This document shows positions 9,030 through 15,835 of a DNA stretch of 41,273 bases, piece by piece (positions within the stretch are counted from its first letter, which is position 1; each line of letters begins with the position of its first letter). Made by a program: the position numbers and the translations under genes. Below the pieces are notes generated by a model, which saw only the letters and a program-made list of their open reading frames with translations, had not been told where the DNA came from and searched no databases. The DNA comes from Escherichia phage vB_EcoS_fTaEco01: the sequence record MT711527.1, one strand, 5' to 3'.

Positions 9030-10196
9030 ATGGCTACAACTCCTTTTAAGGGCGCGAATACTGCGCAATTCTATGTGGCAGAAACTACCCCTGGCGTAAC
9101 ACCGACTAACCCGGTCTGGTCGCCATTGCGTAACACAGGTGGCGTTCCTGCCATTACCCGCGACACGCTGACCTCCAACGAACTGGACGGCAGCCGTGAA
9201 ACTACATCCATCCGCACCGGTAACAAACAGGTTAGCGGTGAATACGCGATCGAGCTTAGCTCGAAAAGCCAGGATGACTGGCTGGCTGGTGCTTTAGGCT
9301 CTACGTGGCAATCCGGTAGTTCTCTGACCGGGCTATCAATTACCGTCGCGCCTGCAGACAAGACCTTTACCCGTGCCGAAGGTAGCTTTATTTCTGACGG
9401 CGTTGAAGTGGGCGACCTGATTGCGTTTACCGACTTAACCGGTGACAACGCAAAACCGTTTATCGTAACTGCAGTAGAGGCGCTGGTAGTGACCGGGGCG
9501 GGTATCCAGCATACCCTGACCACAGAGACAGTAACTACCGCCGCTAAGACAGGGGATAAACTGGAAACGGGAAGCCAGTGCAAGACGTTCTCTATTCTCA
9601 CCTGGTACAAAGGCCAGTGCGGCGGGACTGACGCGTACACACTAACCAAAGGCGTGGAAGTTTCTGGTTTTACCATCGAACAGGCTGTTAACGCTATGGT
9701 AACTGGCAGCTTCCCGTTCATCGGTCGCAGTCAGGAGATTCTCACCACGCAGCCGTCTGGTTCTGATTTCTCCTCTGTTACGTTTGGTGACGAGCCATTC
9801 TCCTCGGTCGATGTTTCTGTGTTCGACGGTTCTACGCCGTTGCGTTGCGACAGCCTGACCATCACCAACGACAACAGCGCGTCCGCACAGTTCGAACTCG
9901 GCAACACTAACGTAGCGTTTGTGGAGCGTAGCCGAGCAGCTAACACCTTCTCCATCTCCGGTAAGCTGTACGACATGGCGATGATTCAGAAGTTTATCAA
10001 CGAGCAGCAGGTGGAGATTAACTCTATTCTGGCTGGGGTAAACGGGGCTATGTCTTTCAGTTTGAAACGTGCAGAACTTACGGCGGTTACACCTGAGATT
10101 GGAGGACCTGAGTCAATCACTCAGTCTATTGAAGGCCAGGCTACTGGCAACCAGTACCAGTCGTCTATTGTTATTCAGCGTATCACATACGCATAA
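9030..10196 (+). CDS. major tail protein (positional)
   Basis: About 389 aa, Thr/Ser/Gly-rich; AGAGG RBS before ATG 9030; followed by a strong terminator. Confidence 0.5.
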   Translation: MATTPFKGANTAQFYVAETTPGVTPTNPVWSPLRNTGGVPAITRDTLTSNELDGSRETTSIRTGNKQVSGEYAIELSSKSQDDWLAGALGSTWQSGSSLTGLSITVAPADKTFTRAEGSFISDGVEVGDLIAFTDLTGDNAKPFIVTAVEALVVTGAGIQHTLTTETVTTAAKTGDKLETGSQCKTFSILTWYKGQCGGTDAYTLTKGVEVSGFTIEQAVNAMVTGSFPFIGRSQEILTTQPSGSDFSSVTFGDEPFSSVDVSVFDGSTPLRCDSLTITNDNSASAQFELGNTNVAFVERSRAANTFSISGKLYDMAMIQKFINEQQVEINSILAGVNGAMSFSLKRAELTAVTPEIGGPESITQSIEGQATGNQYQSSIVIQRITYA

Positions 10197-10200
10197 AACT

Positions 10201-10226
10201 AAGGCCCCGTTTGGGGCCTTTTTCTT
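10201..10226. terminator. bidirectional rho-independent terminator between convergent genes
   Basis: AAGGCCCC-GTTT-GGGGCCTT hairpin flanked by A-run and T-run; nearly identical to the terminator at 22727-22750. Confidence 0.65.
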
Positions 10227-10779
10227 ACAAACCTAATCTTAAAGCAATGCCTATAGCGTTCGATTTAACGTAACCCGGTATGATGTAGGTGTCATAATCT
10301 TTTACACCATCAATATCGTACAGGTAACCGCGGCTGTCCCCTTCAAACGTATGGCCGTCTCTGTGCAAGCGGACGATTCTCACATCATGCCCCGCGGCAA
10401 CGATAGGGGCTACTTCGCTGGCGAACCCGCCATCAGACACCACAAAAACTTCGTCGCCGTCGGGCAAGTTTCCGGCAAGATACTTACCGAAATAATCATC
10501 ACCGAATACCGGTTTAATGAATTGCTCGGAAATGGCAATCATGAACTGACGCCGAGACAACCCGTTAAGGAAACCCTCTGGCTTTTCTTTCCGCGCCCGG
10601 TCGTCGTAGCCGTCGAGAAACTCGCGGTAAGCATCCTGGCCTAACGCAGCCATAGCAATATTGAACATCGGATTCTTGAAACTGGCGACACCCTTCGCAA
10701 AGCCCATTTCTACCAGCGCCCTAGCAAGTGTGTCTTTCCCGCAGCCCGCAGGACCATTAAGAATAATTACCTTAGCCAT
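10225..10779 (-). CDS. P-loop kinase (polynucleotide 5'-kinase-like or dNMP-kinase-like)
   Basis: Walker A GPAGCGKDT at residues 8-16; N-terminus (KVIILNGPAGCGKDTLARAL) resembles the T4 Pnk kinase P-loop region as recalled from memory; 1-nt overlap with upstream phosphatase gene. Confidence 0.55.
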   Translation of the reverse strand: MAKVIILNGPAGCGKDTLARALVEMGFAKGVASFKNPMFNIAMAALGQDAYREFLDGYDDRARKEKPEGFLNGLSRRQFMIAISEQFIKPVFGDDYFGKYLAGNLPDGDEVFVVSDGGFASEVAPIVAAGHDVRIVRLHRDGHTFEGDSRGYLYDIDGVKDYDTYIIPGYVKSNAIGIALRLGL

Positions 10780-11264
10780 TATTTATCACTCCCATGTGGT
10801 TTTAAGTGTGTAGAGTTCCCGTTACAGTCGTATTCAGTAACTGCGTGAGTGGTTATGCCGAGTTCGCGGAAATGCTTTATTACCGCTGGAGAGTCGTCGA
10901 ATGCACACAAGATTCTCTCCGGCCCAATAGCACGCAACACCTCTTCTTTAATTACGATGTCTTTTCTGTTGTCGTGTTTGCTGCGCATGATTAACTGATA
11001 AAATTCGACGCGGTGGCGCTGCAACCACATTCTGGTTTCTTTTTCCGCGTCATCACTACGGCCTGTTAAGATAATAACGGCATAGCGACGATTAAGGGCG
11101 TTACACAGTTCGATGTTATCTTTAATGGGTGCATCGTCTTTGCACGCCATGTTAAATGGTTTCCACGCCCAGGTTTCGCCGTAGTTATCTTTCGGCAGCA
11201 GGTGTAAACGATGAGTACCATCTGCCAATGTCCCGTCTAAATCGAAAATCACAATATCTTTCAT
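10779..11264 (-). CDS. HAD-family phosphatase resembling the 3'-phosphatase domain of T4 polynucleotide kinase-phosphatase
   Basis: DxDGT motif (IVIFDLDGTLA), VIILTGRS, RKDIVIKEEV and FDDS segments that track the order of T4 Pnkp phosphatase motifs as recalled from memory. Confidence 0.65.
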   Translation of the reverse strand: MKDIVIFDLDGTLADGTHRLHLLPKDNYGETWAWKPFNMACKDDAPIKDNIELCNALNRRYAVIILTGRSDDAEKETRMWLQRHRVEFYQLIMRSKHDNRKDIVIKEEVLRAIGPERILCAFDDSPAVIKHFRELGITTHAVTEYDCNGNSTHLKPHGSDK

Positions 11265-12391
11265 CCAAGCATCTCCGGTGAAATAGTTAAACGTGCGACC
11301 TCGCCATATTCGGCGCTATAAGTAATTACGTTTGCACTGCGGCCCGACATCCACCCACCGCGGGAGGCATATGCATCTTTAGCCGCGAGAGTGCGGTGTT
11401 GCTCAACAATCATGTTACGGCTTTCTACAATCTTTTGGTGGTGCAGGTGACCCACGTGGGCGTAGCTGTAAACACTCTCGCCGAACGCTTTGCGGAACTT
11501 GGCAATCATAACCGGTTCGATAGCGTCGAATCGTGCTTTATGCCCATGATGGAAGAACAGCGTCGTTTTGCCGTGTTGCACCATCTTGTAAACATCCGGC
11601 GACGTATCGACGAACACACGCGGTTCATTGTCGTACAGCGTACTAAACATCTCAGCTAACCAAATCATTCCGCTTTCGTCGTGGTTACCTTGCACGATAA
11701 GCAAGCGAACATTTTTATGTTTAACGAGAGCCATATCAATGACACGGCGGACCATACGAATCATGTAGCGTACAAGTTTCTGATAGCGGGTGTCAGCGTC
11801 AAGAACATGACCACTGGCAGGTGTAACGGCGTCCAGACTATCGAAATGCGCAAGGTCGCCCAGCAGATTAATAACTCCTGTTCCGGCATCCGGTGCTTTC
11901 TGGAACGCTGCGTCGAACCAGCGGGAGAACAGGTCTTCCGCAATCTTCATGTCCCAGTCGTCGCCGCTCTCGTCAGCCCAGGCCAGCATACCGAGATGGA
12001 AATCAGACACAGTGTAAAGGTTGAGTAGCTTGTCGTCTCGTTTGGCGCGAACGGCTTTAACAGGTGCAACTGGTGTAATCTCCGACTTCATGCCTTCGAT
12101 TACGGCTTTCATCAATTCAACCTGACGTTCGGCATCGGTGTCGGTCTTAACCCATTGCAACTTGGTGTTGCCAAACTCATCCACAAGTGACGACGTCCCT
12201 TTAATCTTGTAGCCGTCCGGCACAAGGTGGCTAACGTCACGCCCGTGGCCTACGCCTTTCTTCGCAAGTTTCGCTTTACGGATACGAATAACGCGGTCTG
12301 AGATGCCGTATTTACGGGCGATGTCGATATTCTTCATACCGGCGTTCAATTCTTCCTGTAACTGTTCGTCGGTTATTTTCTTCCTGGCCAT
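11261..12391 (-). CDS. calcineurin-like metallophosphoesterase with N-terminal helix-turn-helix domain
   Basis: Metallophosphoesterase motifs in order: SDFH, GDLAHFD, GNHD, HHGH, GHLHH; basic HTH-like N-terminus; GAGGA RBS. Confidence 0.7.
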   Translation of the reverse strand: MARKKITDEQLQEELNAGMKNIDIARKYGISDRVIRIRKAKLAKKGVGHGRDVSHLVPDGYKIKGTSSLVDEFGNTKLQWVKTDTDAERQVELMKAVIEGMKSEITPVAPVKAVRAKRDDKLLNLYTVSDFHLGMLAWADESGDDWDMKIAEDLFSRWFDAAFQKAPDAGTGVINLLGDLAHFDSLDAVTPASGHVLDADTRYQKLVRYMIRMVRRVIDMALVKHKNVRLLIVQGNHDESGMIWLAEMFSTLYDNEPRVFVDTSPDVYKMVQHGKTTLFFHHGHKARFDAIEPVMIAKFRKAFGESVYSYAHVGHLHHQKIVESRNMIVEQHRTLAAKDAYASRGGWMSGRSANVITYSAEYGEVARLTISPEMLG

Positions 12392-12428
12392 GCTTATTCC
12401 TCGTGTTTAGGATTTGTCCTATACTAGC

Positions 12429-12635
12429 TCACTTCTCTTTGACATTCGAGTTGCACGCCCAGATTAAGATAAATACCCACGGCAGCAGAACCCAACCAAG
12501 AAACAGATTAGCCATGAATATCGCTAACTTCGCTTTATGGTTACGGAAGTACGCAACCAGGAAAGGCGCGAAATAAGCGAGCAGTGCAAACAGAATTAAG
12601 GAAACTGGTAAACTTGACATTTTAAACCCCTTCAT
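12429..12635 (-). CDS. superinfection immunity-like small membrane protein (Imm-family)
   Basis: 68 aa, two hydrophobic helices; pattern AYFAPF..AYFRNH...AIF.ANLFLGW....W.F.LIWA matches the conserved core of superinfection-immunity family proteins (from memory). Confidence 0.65.
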   Translation of the reverse strand: MKGFKMSSLPVSLILFALLAYFAPFLVAYFRNHKAKLAIFMANLFLGWVLLPWVFILIWACNSNVKEK

Positions 12636-12679: not shown

Positions 12680-12787
12680 GTAATGTGATAGAATAAGTTT
12701 GCGCCTAGTGTCGCACACGAAAAGCGGGTGGTTCCCGTCTGGCGCATTTATCGTTAACCTGTAACCTCTTAACCAAAGGATTAAAGA

Positions 12788-13204
12788 ATGAAACTTTCTG
12801 ATTTTTATTTCGAAGAGAAAGCACTGGTAGGCAAGAAGATGCCCATTCTGCTGCCAAACGGCGAAGACTCCGGTGAATGGCTTAACGTTGTAAGTCCCGA
12901 TGCGGATGTCGCCGTTAAAGCGGGGCGTGCTTTCATTATTGCGTACCGTCGCGGGTTGGCGCGTTTCGAAGAACTGGAAAAAGCCGCCAAAGAATCCGGC
13001 GACTATACTGAATATAACCTGGCTATTAACGAACTGGCGGAAGACCTCAACCGGCAACTCGCGGCAGAAGTCGTAAACGGCTGGAGCTTTGATGAGCCTT
13101 TCTCTAAAGAAGCATTTAACAAATTGCTGGACCAGTTCAAGGCATTAGGCACACAGGTAGCAGCGTTCCATAACGCTGAGCGCAAAGCATTACAGGAAAA
13201 GTAG
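12788..13204 (+). CDS. tail assembly chaperone (G-like)
   Basis: 138-aa acidic ORF directly upstream of the tape measure gene; AAGGA RBS. Confidence 0.5.
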   Translation: MKLSDFYFEEKALVGKKMPILLPNGEDSGEWLNVVSPDADVAVKAGRAFIIAYRRGLARFEELEKAAKESGDYTEYNLAINELAEDLNRQLAAEVVNGWSFDEPFSKEAFNKLLDQFKALGTQVAAFHNAERKALQEK

Positions 13205-13569
13205 ACGCGCTGTACAGGTTCGCCACCTATGAGTTTGTGGATAAGCATAAAATCAGAGAGTTTGATTCTATAGCCGACGGACACGAACAGGCGCTTATCG
13301 CGATGGGTGTAATCGATAAGAAAAAACGTGCAGCGCGACGGGGTGGGCCAGAATGCCCGCCCCTTTTTATATCCACCTTCGAGACGTACTGCGACATTAA
13401 GTTTACGCGACACGTGCGCGAGGACGCTGTAGTATTGTTCGCAAGAGAATCCGTTACGTGGCAAGACCTGAAAGCCTATCTCGATGTTACGCAAAAACAG
13501 CTTAGCCTGTTCGAGATAGACATTATCATGGGCTTAGAAGCAATCTTTGAAGGTAGAAATCATGGCTGA
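13180..13569 (+). CDS. tail assembly chaperone extension (GT-like), probably expressed by -1 frameshift from 12788-13204
   Basis: Frame -1 relative to the upstream ORF is open from 13180; no ATG or RBS of its own (ORF track uses GTG 13237); slippery-like G_GAA_AAG at 13195-13201; ends overlapping tape measure start. Confidence 0.4.
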   Translation, partial: AQSITGKVDALYRFATYEFVDKHKIREFDSIADGHEQALIAMGVIDKKKRAARRGGPECPPLFISTFETYCDIKFTRHVREDAVVLFARESVTWQDLKAYLDVTQKQLSLFEIDIIMGLEAIFEGRNHG

Positions 13570-15835
13570 TACCGCTAGCTTGATCGTACGAGTATCATCG
13601 ACCGGCGTCGATAAAACCACATCACAACTGAACGGGCTTACCAAAGCCGCGGGGGCCGCCGCCGCTGCCGTTGTCAGTCTGGAAACTGCCAAACAGGTGT
13701 TCAGTGCGCTGGTGGACTCCCAGCGCAACTTCGATAAGCTGAACTCCGGCCTCATCACAATGACCGGGAGCGCCGAGAACGCTGCTAAGGCATTCAGCGT
13801 CCTGCAACAGTTCGCAAAAGAAACTCCGTATGGTCTTAACCAGGCGGTGGAAGGCTTTACTAAGCTGGTGGCCCTCGGCCTGAACCCAAGCAAAGAGGCG
13901 TTAATCTCCTACGGCAACACCGCGGCGGCTATGGGTAAAGACCTTAATCAGATGATTGAGGCGGTTGCCGACGCCAGTACCTTTGAGTTTGAGCGACTGA
14001 AAGAGTTCGGCATCAAGTCGTCGCAACAGGCGGATACAGTTTCGTTCACGTTCCGTGGCGTAACGACCACGGTTAAGAAGAACTCCGAAGAGATTCAGAA
14101 ATACCTCCTGAATATCGGCAACACCGATTTTGCCGGGGCGATGGAGACGCGCTCTAAGACGCTAGACGGCCAGTTATCGAGCCTCGCCGACTCCTTCGAT
14201 GGTCTTGTTCTTGCGGTGGCGCAGTCTGGTTTTGGCGACGCCGTAGGTGAGCAAGCGGCCACAGCGGAACACGCTATCACGGCGCTTACCGACGCCATCG
14301 CGTCTAATGAGATAGCCGCCACGCTCCAGGATTGGGTGGCGCTGTTCAATGAGTCATTCAAGTTTATTTCCGACGCCCTGAATGACCTGGCATTCGATAC
14401 CGAGGACAAATCCGTTGATATGTCTGACTCGCTGGGGACTATACCGGATGCCATCCGTGAGTGGTTGCCGGATATCCAGCAGACATTCCACGAGGTTATT
14501 GCGTGGTTCCAGCGCATTGACGACTACGCGGTAGCGTTAGGCCAGACCCTTGCTGATGTGTTTGACCCGAGCAAAACGGCAGCGCTCACATTTAAAAACC
14601 TGACCGCAGAGGCTGACGCCGCATACGCCGCCAGCATAAAACGCGCAGCGGCGGAATCCCAGGCCATTACCGACAGGTCTAAGCAGCGTAAGAAAGAAAT
14701 TGAGGAACAGCGCAAGCAGTATGACGAGCGCAAGAAGCAAGAAATTGACTTAGCCAGCCTTGTTAATAAAAAGGGTGGAACTGGCGGCACCGGAAACGCC
14801 GACGATAAAGCGGCAAAAGCAGCCGCTAAGAAAGCTGAGCAGTTGCGGAATCAGGCGCAAGACTACCTCGACACTTTGGCCCGTCAGAACAACGACGAGT
14901 TAAAGGCTATTGACGCGCAGGAACAGCAGAAACTGGCTAAAGCAAAAGAGTTCTACAGCCAGGGTGCGTTGTCTCTGAAAGAATACGAACAAGCTAAAAC
15001 AGCTATCGTCCTCGAAGCCGGACAAAAACGACAAGATGAACTGGATAAACGCCAGAAAGAAGCCCAGGAAAAGCAACAGAAAGGCGACGACTTCATGGCT
15101 CAGATTATGGGCCAGAACGCTACTGAGCTTGAGCTTCTCGACATCCAGGAACAGCAGAAACTGGCGGTAGCCGATAAGTACCGTGAACAGGGTCTGATTA
15201 GCGAGAAGCAGTATCAGGCCGCGCTTAACGCCATCAACGAGCAGTATGCTATGAAGCGCGCCGACGCAACGGCGACCGCCTTTGGTAATATGGCCTCAAA
15301 CATTGGGTCTGCGTTGGGCGAGGCTTCAGGTGCGTATAAGGCATTCGCTATCGTACAGGCCACTATAGCCACGTACACCGCAGCTATTGAAGCGTATAAG
15401 TCAACGGCTGCTATCCCTGTAGTCGGCCCGTTCCTGGCTCCTGTAGCTGCCGCCGCTGCCGTTGGGGCAGGTATGGCGCAGATTTCCGCTATCAGGTCCG
15501 CGCGTGAACAGGGGGGACAGTTATCCGCAGGGCAGGCATCCACCATCGCAGAACGCGGTAAACCAGAAGTCATCATGCCTGCTGGCGCATCTCGTGTTCG
15601 CACCGCGCAGCAGATGAAAGAAATTATGGGGCAAAACGGGTCTTCTTCCGGACCGTCTAATGTTACCATCGTAAACAACACGAGTTCTCAGATTGGCAAC
15701 GTATCCACTGAACAAGATGATGAAGGCCGTTTGCGTATCATCATTGAAGAGCAAGTGGCGGCCTCTTTGCAGAACAGCAACAGTAAGATTAGCAAGGCCC
15801 GCAAGGCCACAAGAAACGCGCCGGGGTTCAAATAA
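13562..15835 (+). CDS. tail tape measure protein
   Basis: About 757 aa, Ala/Gln/Lys-rich with long coiled-coil-like segments; follows the chaperone pair. Confidence 0.75.
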   Translation: MADTASLIVRVSSTGVDKTTSQLNGLTKAAGAAAAAVVSLETAKQVFSALVDSQRNFDKLNSGLITMTGSAENAAKAFSVLQQFAKETPYGLNQAVEGFTKLVALGLNPSKEALISYGNTAAAMGKDLNQMIEAVADASTFEFERLKEFGIKSSQQADTVSFTFRGVTTTVKKNSEEIQKYLLNIGNTDFAGAMETRSKTLDGQLSSLADSFDGLVLAVAQSGFGDAVGEQAATAEHAITALTDAIASNEIAATLQDWVALFNESFKFISDALNDLAFDTEDKSVDMSDSLGTIPDAIREWLPDIQQTFHEVIAWFQRIDDYAVALGQTLADVFDPSKTAALTFKNLTAEADAAYAASIKRAAAESQAITDRSKQRKKEIEEQRKQYDERKKQEIDLASLVNKKGGTGGTGNADDKAAKAAAKKAEQLRNQAQDYLDTLARQNNDELKAIDAQEQQKLAKAKEFYSQGALSLKEYEQAKTAIVLEAGQKRQDELDKRQKEAQEKQQKGDDFMAQIMGQNATELELLDIQEQQKLAVADKYREQGLISEKQYQAALNAINEQYAMKRADATATAFGNMASNIGSALGEASGAYKAFAIVQATIATYTAAIEAYKSTAAIPVVGPFLAPVAAAAAVGAGMAQISAIRSAREQGGQLSAGQASTIAERGKPEVIMPAGASRVRTAQQMKEIMGQNGSSSGPSNVTIVNNTSSQIGNVSTEQDDEGRLRIIIEEQVAASLQNSNSKISKARKATRNAPGFK

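What the first reader, a model, noticed from the sequence alone, without database searches (positions are those of the whole stretch)
13180..13204. Probable programmed -1 frameshift joining the two tail chaperone ORFs
The ORF after the tail chaperone gene has no ATG or RBS, is open in the -1 frame from 13180 (about 22 nt before the upstream stop at 13202-13204), and ends overlapping the tape measure start. This is the canonical G/GT arrangement. The last codons contain G_GAA_AAG (13195-13201), where a lysine tRNA could re-pair on AAA after slipping; it is not the textbook XXXYYYZ heptamer.
Basis: partly seen in the sequence, partly recalled or inferred. Interest (0 to 1): 0.5.

Follow-up and report, generated by a model that had tools for sequence, protein, structure and literature searches.

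The report
Tail chaperone frameshift site, already annotated
This is the usual ribosomal slip that lets a tailed phage make a short and a long tail-assembly chaperone from two overlapping genes; it is already annotated for identical phages, but relatives show that the slip site is a minimal A_AAG next to the stop codon, followed by a conserved RNA helix that no source I found describes.

Summary
The window is a K1G-like Kagunavirus. The chaperone gene 12788-13204 ends CAG GAA AAG TAG. The -1 frame is open from 13180 and runs to 13569, overlapping the tape measure start at 13562.

The frameshift reading is well supported.
- All 76 distinct relatives (43-100% protein identity) end the first gene with NNA AAG TAR.
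- In some relatives the -1 frame opens only 7 nt before the stop, so the shift must occur on the last two codons.
- No start codon or ribosome binding site is conserved in the second frame.
- The second ORF is a real chaperone domain (Pfam Phage_TAC_18, E = 1e-18).

It is not new. The exact fusion protein (...ALQEK|VDALY...) is already in NCBI for K1G and fKuEco01.

What I add is a refinement. The conserved core is the tetramer A_AAG plus the adjacent stop. G_GAA_AAG is a near-cognate heptamer. A long-range helix (13206-13215 with 13328-13337) begins 4-5 nt after the site. Every relative has such a helix, in one of two registers, with compensatory changes. It is probably the frameshift stimulator.

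Nothing has been tested experimentally. Overall interest is low to moderate.

The parts
12788..13204 (+). G-like tail assembly chaperone ORF (138 aa), zero frame
   Evidence: ORF list. Pfam PF08748 Phage_TAC_4, 26.5 bits against a cut-off of 21.1. PHROG 15027 positions 1-138.
13180..13204 (+). Overlap window: the -1 frame is open while the zero frame is still being read
   Evidence: Translation of the -1 frame shows stops at 13171 and 13177, then an open frame.
13195..13201 (+). Near-cognate slippery heptamer G_GAA_AAG (P-site GAA, A-site AAG)
   Evidence: Sequence. In relatives with a penultimate GAA, the preceding base is G after seven different codons: CAG, TCG, GCG, ATG, TTG, CTG, AAG.
13198..13201 (+). 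Invariant slip core A_AAG (tRNA-Lys re-pairs from AAG to AAA)
   Evidence: The terminal codon is AAG in 76 of 76 distinct relatives. Elsewhere in the gene Lys codons are AAA 517 to AAG 249. The penultimate codon is one of six types (GAA, GCA, GTA, TCA, AAA, GGA), all ending in A.
13202..13204 (+). Zero-frame stop TAG, directly abutting the slip site
   Evidence: The stop is TAG or TAA directly after AAG in 79 of 79 loci, and never TGA.
13201..13569 (+). T segment read in the -1 frame after the shift (122 codons plus stop). The GT product is join(12788..13201, 13201..13569), 260 aa.
   Evidence: Pfam PF23812 Phage_TAC_18, E = 1.1e-18. The exact 260-aa fusion is present in NCBI as YP_009168804.1, ADA82267.1 and QNO11738.1.
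13206..13215 (+). 5' arm (CGCGCUGUAC) of the predicted long-range helix. It starts 4-5 nt after the slip site.
   Evidence: Ala codon GCG is invariant in 76 of 76 and the Leu codon is only CTG or TTG, although synonymous sites nearby are saturated.
13328..13337 (+). 3' arm (GUGCAGCGCG) of the long-range helix: 10 bp, duplex energy -17.4 kcal/mol
   Evidence: Pair probabilities are about 1.0. RNAalifold recovers the helix independently. Covariation: C-G in 12 sequences against U-A in 8 at one pair with none broken, and 86% of cells paired against 20-54% when the partner is slid.
13340..13372 (+). Terminator-like hairpin (9 bp, 8 G-C) plus UUUUUAUAU inside the T ORF. Whether it belongs to the frameshift signal is uncertain.
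   Evidence: It is present with lineage-specific stem extensions in many relatives but not all.
13562..15835 (+). Tape measure protein gene. Its ATG overlaps the end of the T ORF (ATGGCTGA).
   Evidence: PHROG 1538, E = 1.5e-193. The overlap is conserved in relatives.

Best explanation
A small fraction of ribosomes translating the chaperone gene slip back one nucleotide on its last two codons, G_GAA_AAG (13195-13201). The essential event is tRNA-Lys moving from AAG to AAA. In this phage tRNA-Glu can also re-pair from GAA to GGA, with a G:U pair in the middle position. Slipped ribosomes read GUA (Val, 13201-13203) next and continue through the T ORF to 13569. The result is a 260-aa GT fusion alongside the abundant 138-aa G protein, as in lambda G/GT.

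A long-range RNA helix probably stimulates the slip. It pairs 13206-13215 with 13328-13337, and its first base pairs sit at the ribosome's mRNA entrance when GAA and AAG occupy the P and A sites. Ribosomes that do not slip terminate at once on the adjacent UAG.

Shown here: the gene arrangement, the family assignments, the nucleotide-level conservation of A_AAG plus the stop, and the conserved complementarity with covariation.

Inferred: that slippage actually occurs, its efficiency, that the helix is the stimulator, and any role for the adjacent stop.

My confidence is about 0.85 for the frameshift at this site and about 0.6 for the helix as its stimulator.
For: **Arrangement and families**
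- G hits Phage_TAC_4, T hits Phage_TAC_18, and the tape measure gene follows directly.

**Conservation of the site**
- 79 of 79 related loci end G with NNA AAG TAR, across 19 different four-codon endings.
- The terminal Lys codon is AAG in 76 of 76 distinct sequences, against 33% AAG elsewhere in the gene.
- The penultimate codon encodes six different amino acids and always ends in A, although A is only 22% of third positions.
- The Leu codon three positions upstream uses all six synonymous codons, so synonymous sites are saturated.

**Position of the shift**
- L076 and L078 have a -1 stop 7 nt before the zero-frame stop, which confines the shift to C_GCA_AAG.

**No independent start**
- The first in-frame start codon lies from 121 nt before to 323 nt after the stop (from +8 in most relatives), depending on the relative.
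- Shine-Dalgarno pairing at GTG 13237 and ATG 13303 is at background level.
- The conserved residues V-x-A-L-Y are encoded upstream of any start codon.

**Natural variants**
- RP180 carries the canonical G_GGA_AAG. L101 and L103 carry A_AAA_AAG.

**Precedent from the literature**
- A_AAG is the most frameshift-prone tetramer in E. coli. It gives 5.6% with the IS3 pseudoknot placed 5 nt downstream, and is barely above background without a stimulator (PMC4066793).
- NNA_AAG sites are used by IS1222. E. coli has a single tRNA-Lys (PMC5009743).
- The window encodes no tRNA.

**Helix**
- Every distinct relative has a helix whose 5' arm starts 1-4 nt (mostly 2-3) after the stop. Its partner ends near +132/133 (6-10 bp) or near +206 (8-16 bp).
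- Covariation exceeds every shuffle (0 of 500) and every slid control.
- RNAalifold finds the helix without being told.
- Pair probabilities are about 1.0 in most sequences.
- It is the longest conserved helix in the 767-nt G+T region of the +206 group, and ties for longest in the other group.
- The segment 13202-13375 folds with z = -4.05 against shuffles.
Against: - There is no experimental evidence for the fusion protein in any of these phages.
- The P-site re-pairing in G_GAA_AAG is imperfect. In many relatives (C_GCA_AAG) it is absent altogether, so the efficiency without a stimulator would be very low.
- Short downstream segments do not fold better than shuffles (z = -0.41 and -0.31).
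- Both helix arms lie in coding sequence and the sequences are phylogenetically related. The covariation counts therefore overstate the number of independent events.
- In the +132 group the helix only ties with other conserved helices by the strict scan. Its pair probability is 0.3-0.4 in L054 and L111.
- Many GenBank records annotate the T ORF as a separate gene. One paper on a Kagunavirus states that there is no canonical slippery sequence.
Confidence: 0.8

Rival explanations
1. The product is the same but the timing differs. The slip happens after translocation, when tRNA-Lys sits alone on AAG in the P site and the slowly decoded stop UAG occupies the A site. This would be a -1 'shifty stop' or hungry-site slip of a single tRNA. 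The helix would play no mechanical role at that step.
For: - The stop abuts A_AAG in 79 of 79 loci.
- P-site re-pairing of the upstream tRNA is impossible in the C_GCA_AAG, A_GCA_AAG and G_TCA_AAG lineages.
- The base after the stop is A or C in 75 of 76 sequences. From my own knowledge, these are weak termination contexts in E. coli.
- In actinobacteriophage chaperone frameshifts the slip site lies on average 26 nt from the stop (PMC10885494). Zero distance is therefore unusual.
Against: - The helix starts 4-5 nt after AAG. This is the classical spacing for a slip with AAG in the A site, and it matches the 5-nt IS3 spacer.
- With AAG in the P site, most of the 5' arm would already be inside the ribosome.
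- The position of the stop may be conserved simply by descent, because G is 138 aa in nearly all relatives.
Confidence: 0.25
2. There is no frameshift. The downstream ORF is translated on its own from an internal start (GTG 13237, or TTG just after the stop in relatives) and acts as a separate small chaperone.
For: - Many records annotate it as a separate gene, including SE2, Shashou and most hits labelled 'hypothetical protein'.
- In the SE2-like and Shashou-like lineages a TTG lies 6 nt after the stop, with AGGA about 12 nt upstream.
Against: - The position of the first start codon lies from 121 nt before to 323 nt after the stop (from +8 in most relatives), depending on the relative. It is often deep inside the conserved domain.
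- In this window the position equivalent to that TTG is CTG.
- That T/C position covaries with its helix partner: C-G in 12 sequences, U-A in 8.
- Shine-Dalgarno pairing at GTG 13237 and ATG 13303 is at background level.
- The residues encoded between the stop and GTG 13237 are conserved as protein, including invariant V, A and L.
Confidence: 0.07
3. The conserved long-range complementarity is real but serves another purpose. It might affect mRNA stability or processing, set up the adjacent terminator-like hairpin, or act at the DNA level. The frameshift would then rely on the site alone.
For: - A strong terminator-like hairpin follows the 3' arm by 2 nt in this phage and in several lineages.
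- No Rfam family matches the region.
- The strict conserved-helix scan is not uniquely significant for the +132 group.
Against: - The 5' arm keeps the same position relative to the slip site, 1-4 nt (mostly 2-3) after the stop, while the 3' partner changes between lineages (+132 or +206). That pattern is expected if the position next to the slip site is what is selected.
- A_AAG alone is barely above background in E. coli, so some stimulator is needed.
Confidence: 0.3
4. RNA polymerase slippage on the A run, rather than ribosomal slippage, produces an mRNA with one base fewer or more that encodes the fusion.
For: GGAAAAG contains four consecutive A residues. L101 and L103 have six.
Against: - Lineages ending GCA AAG, GTA AAG or TCA AAG have only three consecutive A residues. 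From my own knowledge, productive transcriptional slippage needs longer runs.
- The invariant G of AAG and the adjacent helix fit ribosomal slippage.
Confidence: 0.02

Closest known systems
Phage lambda G/GT tail assembly chaperone frameshift (Levin 1993; Xu, Hendrix and Duda 2004, 2013, 2014, as summarised in PMC5009743)
   Same: - Two overlapping ORFs lie directly upstream of the tape measure gene.
- The shift is -1, near the end of the first ORF.
- The A-site codon is AAG. Lambda uses G_GGA_AAG, which differs from this site by one base and is actually present in the close relative RP180.
- A low-level fusion product is expected.
   Different: - The P-site triplet is not a perfect repeat (G_GA rather than G_GG).
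- The stop codon abuts the site directly.
- A conserved downstream helix is predicted.
- The proteins fall in Pfam Phage_TAC_4 and Phage_TAC_18. No lambda G or T family was hit at E <= 0.1.
- A 2.4-kb block of reverse-oriented genes separates the tail tube gene from the chaperone gene.
Annotated ORF22A/ORF22B of Escherichia phage K1G (GU196277, NC_027993) and KE1_022/023 of vB_EcoS_fKuEco01 (MT711525)
   Same: The DNA is identical over 12700-13650. The joined CDS is the same and so is the 260-aa product.
   Different: Nothing differs at the sequence level. Those records give no slip-site rationale and no stimulator. Other records for the same genus leave the two ORFs unjoined.
IS3 orfA-orfB frameshift (A_AAG, 5-nt spacer, pseudoknot) and NNA_AAG hexanucleotide sites such as IS1222 G_CGA_AAG (PMC4066793, PMC5009743)
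   Same: - The essential slip is tRNA-Lys on A_AAG.
- P-site re-pairing is weak or absent.
- The site depends on a structure about 5 nt downstream.
- The host has a single tRNA-Lys.
   Different: - The predicted stimulator is a helix closing a domain of about 110 nt (about 175 nt in some relatives), not a compact pseudoknot.
- The zero-frame stop is adjacent to the site rather than 8 codons downstream.
Long-range frameshift stimulators: IS3411-type loop-loop pairing 44-104 nt downstream, and the T7 gene 10 dependence on a terminator element more than 200 nt downstream (PMC5009743)
   Same: The distal partner lies 100-200 nt 3' of the shift site. In this phage a terminator-like hairpin lies next to that distal partner.
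   Different: Here the 5' partner is a single strand directly after the site, not the loop of a proximal stem. Function has not been tested.
E. coli dnaX A_AAA_AAG frameshift
   Same: The A-site codon and tRNA-Lys are the same. Two relatives (L101, L103) carry exactly A_AAA_AAG.
   Different: dnaX has a fully cognate heptamer, an upstream Shine-Dalgarno-like element and a local stem-loop. Its efficiency is about 50%, and the shifted product is the truncated one.

Membership tests
G/GT-type tail assembly chaperone pair with programmed -1 frameshift | Two overlapping ORFs lie directly upstream of the tape measure gene, with the second in the -1 frame | tested here: met
   ORFs 12788-13204 and 13180-13569 are followed by the tape measure ATG at 13562.
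G/GT-type tail assembly chaperone pair with programmed -1 frameshift | The pair lies downstream of the major tail (tube) gene | tested here: met
   The tail gene is at 9030-10196 (the homologue is annotated as tail tube in Shashou). Four reverse-strand genes at 10225-12635 lie in between.
G/GT-type tail assembly chaperone pair with programmed -1 frameshift | The second ORF has no conserved translation start of its own | tested here: met
   The position of the first start codon varies among relatives, from 121 nt before to 323 nt after the stop (from +8 in most). Shine-Dalgarno energy is at background level.
G/GT-type tail assembly chaperone pair with programmed -1 frameshift | The overlap contains a slippery sequence that allows re-pairing in the -1 frame, and it is conserved in relatives | tested here: met
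   A_AAG is invariant in 76 of 76 distinct sequences. G_GAA_AAG is present here.
G/GT-type tail assembly chaperone pair with programmed -1 frameshift | Both G and GT proteins are made at a fixed ratio and both are needed for tail assembly | not testable with these tools
   This needs proteomics and genetics.
Lambda gpG / gpT protein families (sequence homology) | A significant match to the Pfam families of lambda G and T | tested here: not met
   The Pfam scan at E <= 0.1 returns only Phage_TAC_4 and DUF7179 for G, and Phage_TAC_18 for T. The PDB sequence search gave no relevant hit.
Pfam PF08748 Phage_TAC_4 and PF23812 Phage_TAC_18 | The score exceeds the curated gathering threshold | tested here: met
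   26.5 bits against a cut-off of 21.1, and 67.5 bits against a cut-off of 27.
Canonical X_XXY_YYZ heptanucleotide -1 site | X_XX are three identical bases, giving cognate P-site re-pairing | tested here: not met
   The triplet is G_GA. GAA to GGA needs a G:U pair at the middle position.
Canonical X_XXY_YYZ heptanucleotide -1 site | Y_YYZ allows A-site re-pairing | tested here: met
   A_AAG at 13198-13201.
Z_ZZN tetranucleotide / NNA_AAG hexanucleotide -1 sites (IS3, IS1222 type) | An A_AAG motif decoded in a host with a single tRNA-Lys(UUU) | tested here: met
   The motif is present. Hosts of identical phages are E. coli. The window has no tRNA gene. The single tRNA-Lys in E. coli is taken from PMC5009743.
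Z_ZZN tetranucleotide / NNA_AAG hexanucleotide -1 sites (IS3, IS1222 type) | A stimulatory RNA structure starts about 5 nt downstream of the motif | tested here: inconclusive
   A conserved, covarying helix starts 4-5 nt downstream. Its stimulatory function has not been tested.
Z_ZZN tetranucleotide / NNA_AAG hexanucleotide -1 sites (IS3, IS1222 type) | A frameshift product has been demonstrated | not testable with these tools
   This needs a reporter assay or mass spectrometry.

The most novel reading that the evidence does not exclude
Across Guernseyvirinae, the tail chaperone frameshift runs on a minimal A_AAG tetramer fused to the stop codon. It is driven by a long-range helix whose 5' arm is fixed 1-4 nt (mostly 2-3) after the stop. 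The 3' partner has been exchanged during evolution between two sites, about 130 and about 205 nt downstream, and some lineages carry both. Several lineages also have an adjacent terminator-like hairpin. This would be a previously undescribed stimulator architecture for phage G/GT frameshifting. It would also explain why annotators report 'no canonical slippery sequence' in these phages.
Probability: 0.5. Interest if true: 0.5.

Novelty: already known. Interest (0 to 1): 0.3.

Why it matters
The frameshift itself is routine. It is the standard way siphoviruses set the ratio of two tail assembly chaperones, and public records for identical phages already join the two ORFs.

There are two practical gains.

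- Annotation. Hundreds of Kagunavirus and Jerseyvirus records still list the second ORF as a separate hypothetical protein, and at least one paper says no slippery sequence exists. The family-wide signature given here justifies joining the ORFs consistently. The signature is NNA AAG TAR followed by GCG YTG.
- A possible model system. If the long-range helix is confirmed, these easily grown E. coli and Salmonella phages would offer a natural series for studying how site strength and a distal structure trade off in bacterial -1 frameshifting. The series has slip sites from no P-site re-pairing, through near-cognate, to canonical, and two alternative helix partners.

Tried and rejected
- **Local hairpin stimulator.** Folding 13202-13290 and 13150-13350 gave energies no better than shuffles (z = -0.41 and -0.31). 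A simple local stem-loop is therefore not supported.
- **Known RNA family.** The Rfam scan of 13100-13600 gave only chance-level hits, with E above 2.
- **Naturally fused versions.** SS3e and GE_vB_M4 looked like in-frame fusions in tblastn. Inspection shows several frame-breaking indels inside G as well, so these are sequencing errors and were discarded.
- **Other slip sites in the 25-nt window.** CGC AAA GCA offers no -1 re-pairing and is not conserved. Fusion products joined at two other positions within the window are absent from the protein collection.
- **Stop-codon readthrough.** I considered this because of the helix after the stop. The zero frame closes after 22 more codons, and the conserved domain is in the -1 frame.
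- **Upstream Shine-Dalgarno-like stimulator.** No conserved candidate appears among the last ten codons of G in relatives.
- **Solved structures.** The PDB sequence search returned no relevant relative.
- **Literature.** Searches for a description of this frameshift in Kagunavirus or Jerseyvirus found only the Shashou statement. The paper on the proposed subfamily (PMID 25663216) is not held in the library.

Full report
**Identity of the window.** The segment 12700-13650 is 100% identical to Escherichia phage K1G, vB_EcoS_fKuEco01 and other members of Kagunavirus (Guernseyvirinae). In all, 116 phage records match at 80-100% identity.

**Check of the observation.**
- The zero-frame ORF 12788-13204 ends ...GCA TTA CAG GAA AAG TAG.
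- The -1 frame has stops at 13171 and 13177. It is then open from 13180 to TGA at 13567-13569.
- The tape measure ATG is at 13562, so the two genes overlap by 8 nt.
- G GAA AAG lies at 13195-13201.
In-frame GTG 13237 and ATG 13303 exist. Their Shine-Dalgarno pairing is at background level (-2.2 and -2.5 kcal/mol, background mean -2.4), against -5.4 and -5.0 for the real starts of the two flanking genes.
- The string AAAGTAG is not rare in the window: 6 occurrences against 5.0 expected. The case therefore rests on context and conservation.

**What the two ORFs encode.**
- The first ORF matches Pfam Phage_TAC_4 above its threshold. The second matches Phage_TAC_18 at E = 1.1e-18.
- PHROG 15027, a 259-position profile built from fused proteins, matches the first ORF over positions 1-138 and the second over positions 135-259.
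- The next gene is the tape measure protein (PHROG 1538, E = 1.5e-193).
- A tail gene lies upstream at 9030-10196. Four reverse-strand genes separate it from the chaperone gene.

**It is already annotated.**
- RefSeq K1G (NC_027993) and MT711525 carry a two-piece joined CDS for a 260-aa tail assembly chaperone over identical DNA.
- An exact-sequence look-up shows that the fusion with junction ...ALQEK|VDALY... is in NCBI as ADA82267.1, YP_009168804.1, QNO11738.1 and QNO11960.1. Fusions joined at two other positions are not present.
- Many other records leave the second ORF as a separate hypothetical protein.
- The genome announcement of the Kagunavirus Shashou says there is no canonical slippery sequence (PMC6776780). 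Shashou nevertheless has the same CAG GAA AAG TAG.

**Comparative evidence for the site.** I collected 112 IMG/VR loci (L003-L034 and L038-L117, overlapping sets drawn from the same contigs) encoding relatives with 43-100% identity in G.
- All 79 complete loci end G with NNA AAG TAR, across 19 different four-codon endings.
- Among 76 distinct sequences the terminal Lys codon is always AAG. Elsewhere in the gene, AAA outnumbers AAG by 517 to 249.
- The penultimate codon is GAA, GCA, GTA, TCA, AAA or GGA. That is six amino acids, always ending in A, while A is only 22% of third positions.
- The invariant Leu three codons upstream uses all six synonymous codons. Synonymous sites are therefore saturated, and the A_AAG conservation is a constraint at the nucleotide level.
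- In L076 and L078 the -1 frame opens only 7 nt before the stop. The shift must occur on the last two codons.
- When the penultimate codon is GAA, the preceding base is G after seven different codons. This suggests selection for G_GAA_AAG, where tRNA-Glu can re-pair on GGA with one G:U pair.
- Other lineages have C_GCA_AAG, with no re-pairing.
- RP180 has the lambda heptamer G_GGA_AAG. L101 and L103 have the dnaX heptamer A_AAA_AAG.
- The first in-frame start codon in the T frame lies from 121 nt before to 323 nt after the stop (from +8 in most relatives), depending on the relative. The residues right after the junction (V-x-A-L-Y/F/C) are conserved. This argues against independent initiation.

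**Relation to known slip sites.**
- In E. coli, A_AAG is the most shift-prone tetramer. It reaches 5.6% with the IS3 pseudoknot placed 5 nt downstream, and is barely above background without a stimulator (PMC4066793).
- NNA_AAG sites are used productively by IS1222. E. coli has a single tRNA-Lys for AAA and AAG (PMC5009743).
- The window encodes no tRNA.

The site therefore belongs to a known class, and that class needs a stimulator.

**A conserved long-range helix.**
- In the window, CGCGCUGUAC (13206-13215) is complementary to GUGCAGCGCG (13328-13337). The helix is 10 bp with a duplex energy of -17.4 kcal/mol.
- It starts 4 nt after the slip site. The first pair that is universal among relatives starts 5 nt after it.
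- Every distinct relative has a helix whose 5' arm begins 1-4 nt (mostly 2-3) after the stop. The 3' arm ends either at +132/133 (6-10 bp) or at +206 (8-16 bp).
- L075-L081 have both an 11-15 bp partner at +206 and a 10-bp partner at +125.

Statistics for the two groups, each on an ungapped alignment:

| Measure | Partner at +132 (20 sequences) | Partner at +206 (22 sequences) |
|---|---|---|
| Cells paired | 86% | 83% |
| Cells paired when the partner is slid | 20-54% | 20-50% |
| Pairs with changes on both sides | one pair switches C-G (12) to U-A (8), none broken; three further pairs covary | five pairs |
| Shuffles reaching the covariation score | 0 of 500 | 0 of 500 |
| Source | | |

- RNAalifold recovers the helix independently in both alignments.
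- Predicted pair probabilities are about 1.0 in most sequences, and 0.3-0.4 in L054 and L111.
- In a blind scan of the 767-nt G+T region, this helix is the longest conserved helix in the +206 group. It ties for longest in the +132 group.
- In the 5' arm the Ala codon is GCG in 76 of 76 sequences and the Leu codon is only CTG or TTG. A nearby Ala uses all four codons.

The fixed 5' position combined with a changing 3' partner is what selection for a structure next to the slip site would produce. The spacing matches the IS3 arrangement.

Caveats:
- The sequences are related, so the covariation counts are not independent events.
- Both arms are coding sequence.
- Nothing has been tested experimentally.
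- I found no description of this element in Rfam or in the literature searched.

**The adjacent stop.**
- The stop follows AAG directly in every relative. It is TAG or TAA and never TGA. The next base is A or C in 75 of 76 sequences.
- In actinobacteriophage chaperone frameshifts the slip site lies on average 26 nt from the stop (PMC10885494).
- The stop could prolong the pause with tRNA-Lys in the P site. It could also simply be inherited. I treat this as an open sub-question and list it as a rival mechanism that yields the same product.

**Verdict.** The frameshift is of a well-known kind and is already annotated for this very sequence. The new elements are the definition of the conserved core and a probable long-range stimulator. 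Both are computational inferences.

Noticed in passing
window 13340-13372: A strong hairpin resembling an intrinsic terminator lies inside the T ORF: GGGGUGGGC-CAGAAU-GCCCGCCCC (9 bp, 8 G-C), then UUUUUAUAU. It starts 2 nt after the 3' arm of the long-range helix. The segment 13202-13375 folds with z = -4.05. Many relatives keep a hairpin plus U tract, with lineage-specific stem extensions. The SE2-like and Shashou-like lineages and several others do not. It could be a partial terminator that sets chaperone-to-tape-measure stoichiometry, or part of the frameshift signal, as in T7 gene 10.
   Followed up: partly
L075-L081 (for example L076:1615-1835): In this Jerseyvirus-like lineage the same 5' arm has two mutually exclusive partners. 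One is 10 bp and ends at +125. The other is 11-15 bp and ends at +206. This could be an evolutionary intermediate or a structural switch.
   Followed up: partly
L010 / L045 (Raoultella phage RP180), last codons of G: This relative has 97-98% protein identity in G (97% nucleotide identity over 12700-13650) and has GGA in place of GAA. That gives the canonical lambda heptamer G_GGA_AAG and a Glu-to-Gly change at the penultimate residue. L101 and L103 carry A_AAA_AAG.
   Followed up: partly
window 10225-12635, minus strand: A block of four reverse-oriented genes lies between the tail gene (9030-10196) and the chaperone gene. In K1G they are annotated as an ATP-binding protein, a polynucleotide kinase/phosphatase, a metallophosphoesterase/exonuclease and superinfection immunity. 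The block interrupts the usual tube-chaperone-tape measure order.
   Followed up: no
L035 (NC_006940.2 SS3e) and L036 (MG969409 GE_vB_M4): These public records contain several frame-breaking indels within the chaperone gene. The indels make the two ORFs look fused in one frame. They are very likely sequencing errors.
   Followed up: yes
window 13231-13239 with 13302-13310: RNAalifold also predicts an inner helix within the domain enclosed by the long-range helix. One of its pairs covaries (G-U 10, C-G 8, A-U 2). It is rich in G-U pairs and I give it low confidence.
   Followed up: no
window 12689-12661, minus strand: A promoter-like site (ATCACA, 17-nt spacer, TATAAT; 10 of 12 matches) faces the superinfection immunity gene, in the intergenic region upstream of the chaperone gene. 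The simple scan found no plus-strand promoter for the chaperone gene.
   Followed up: no
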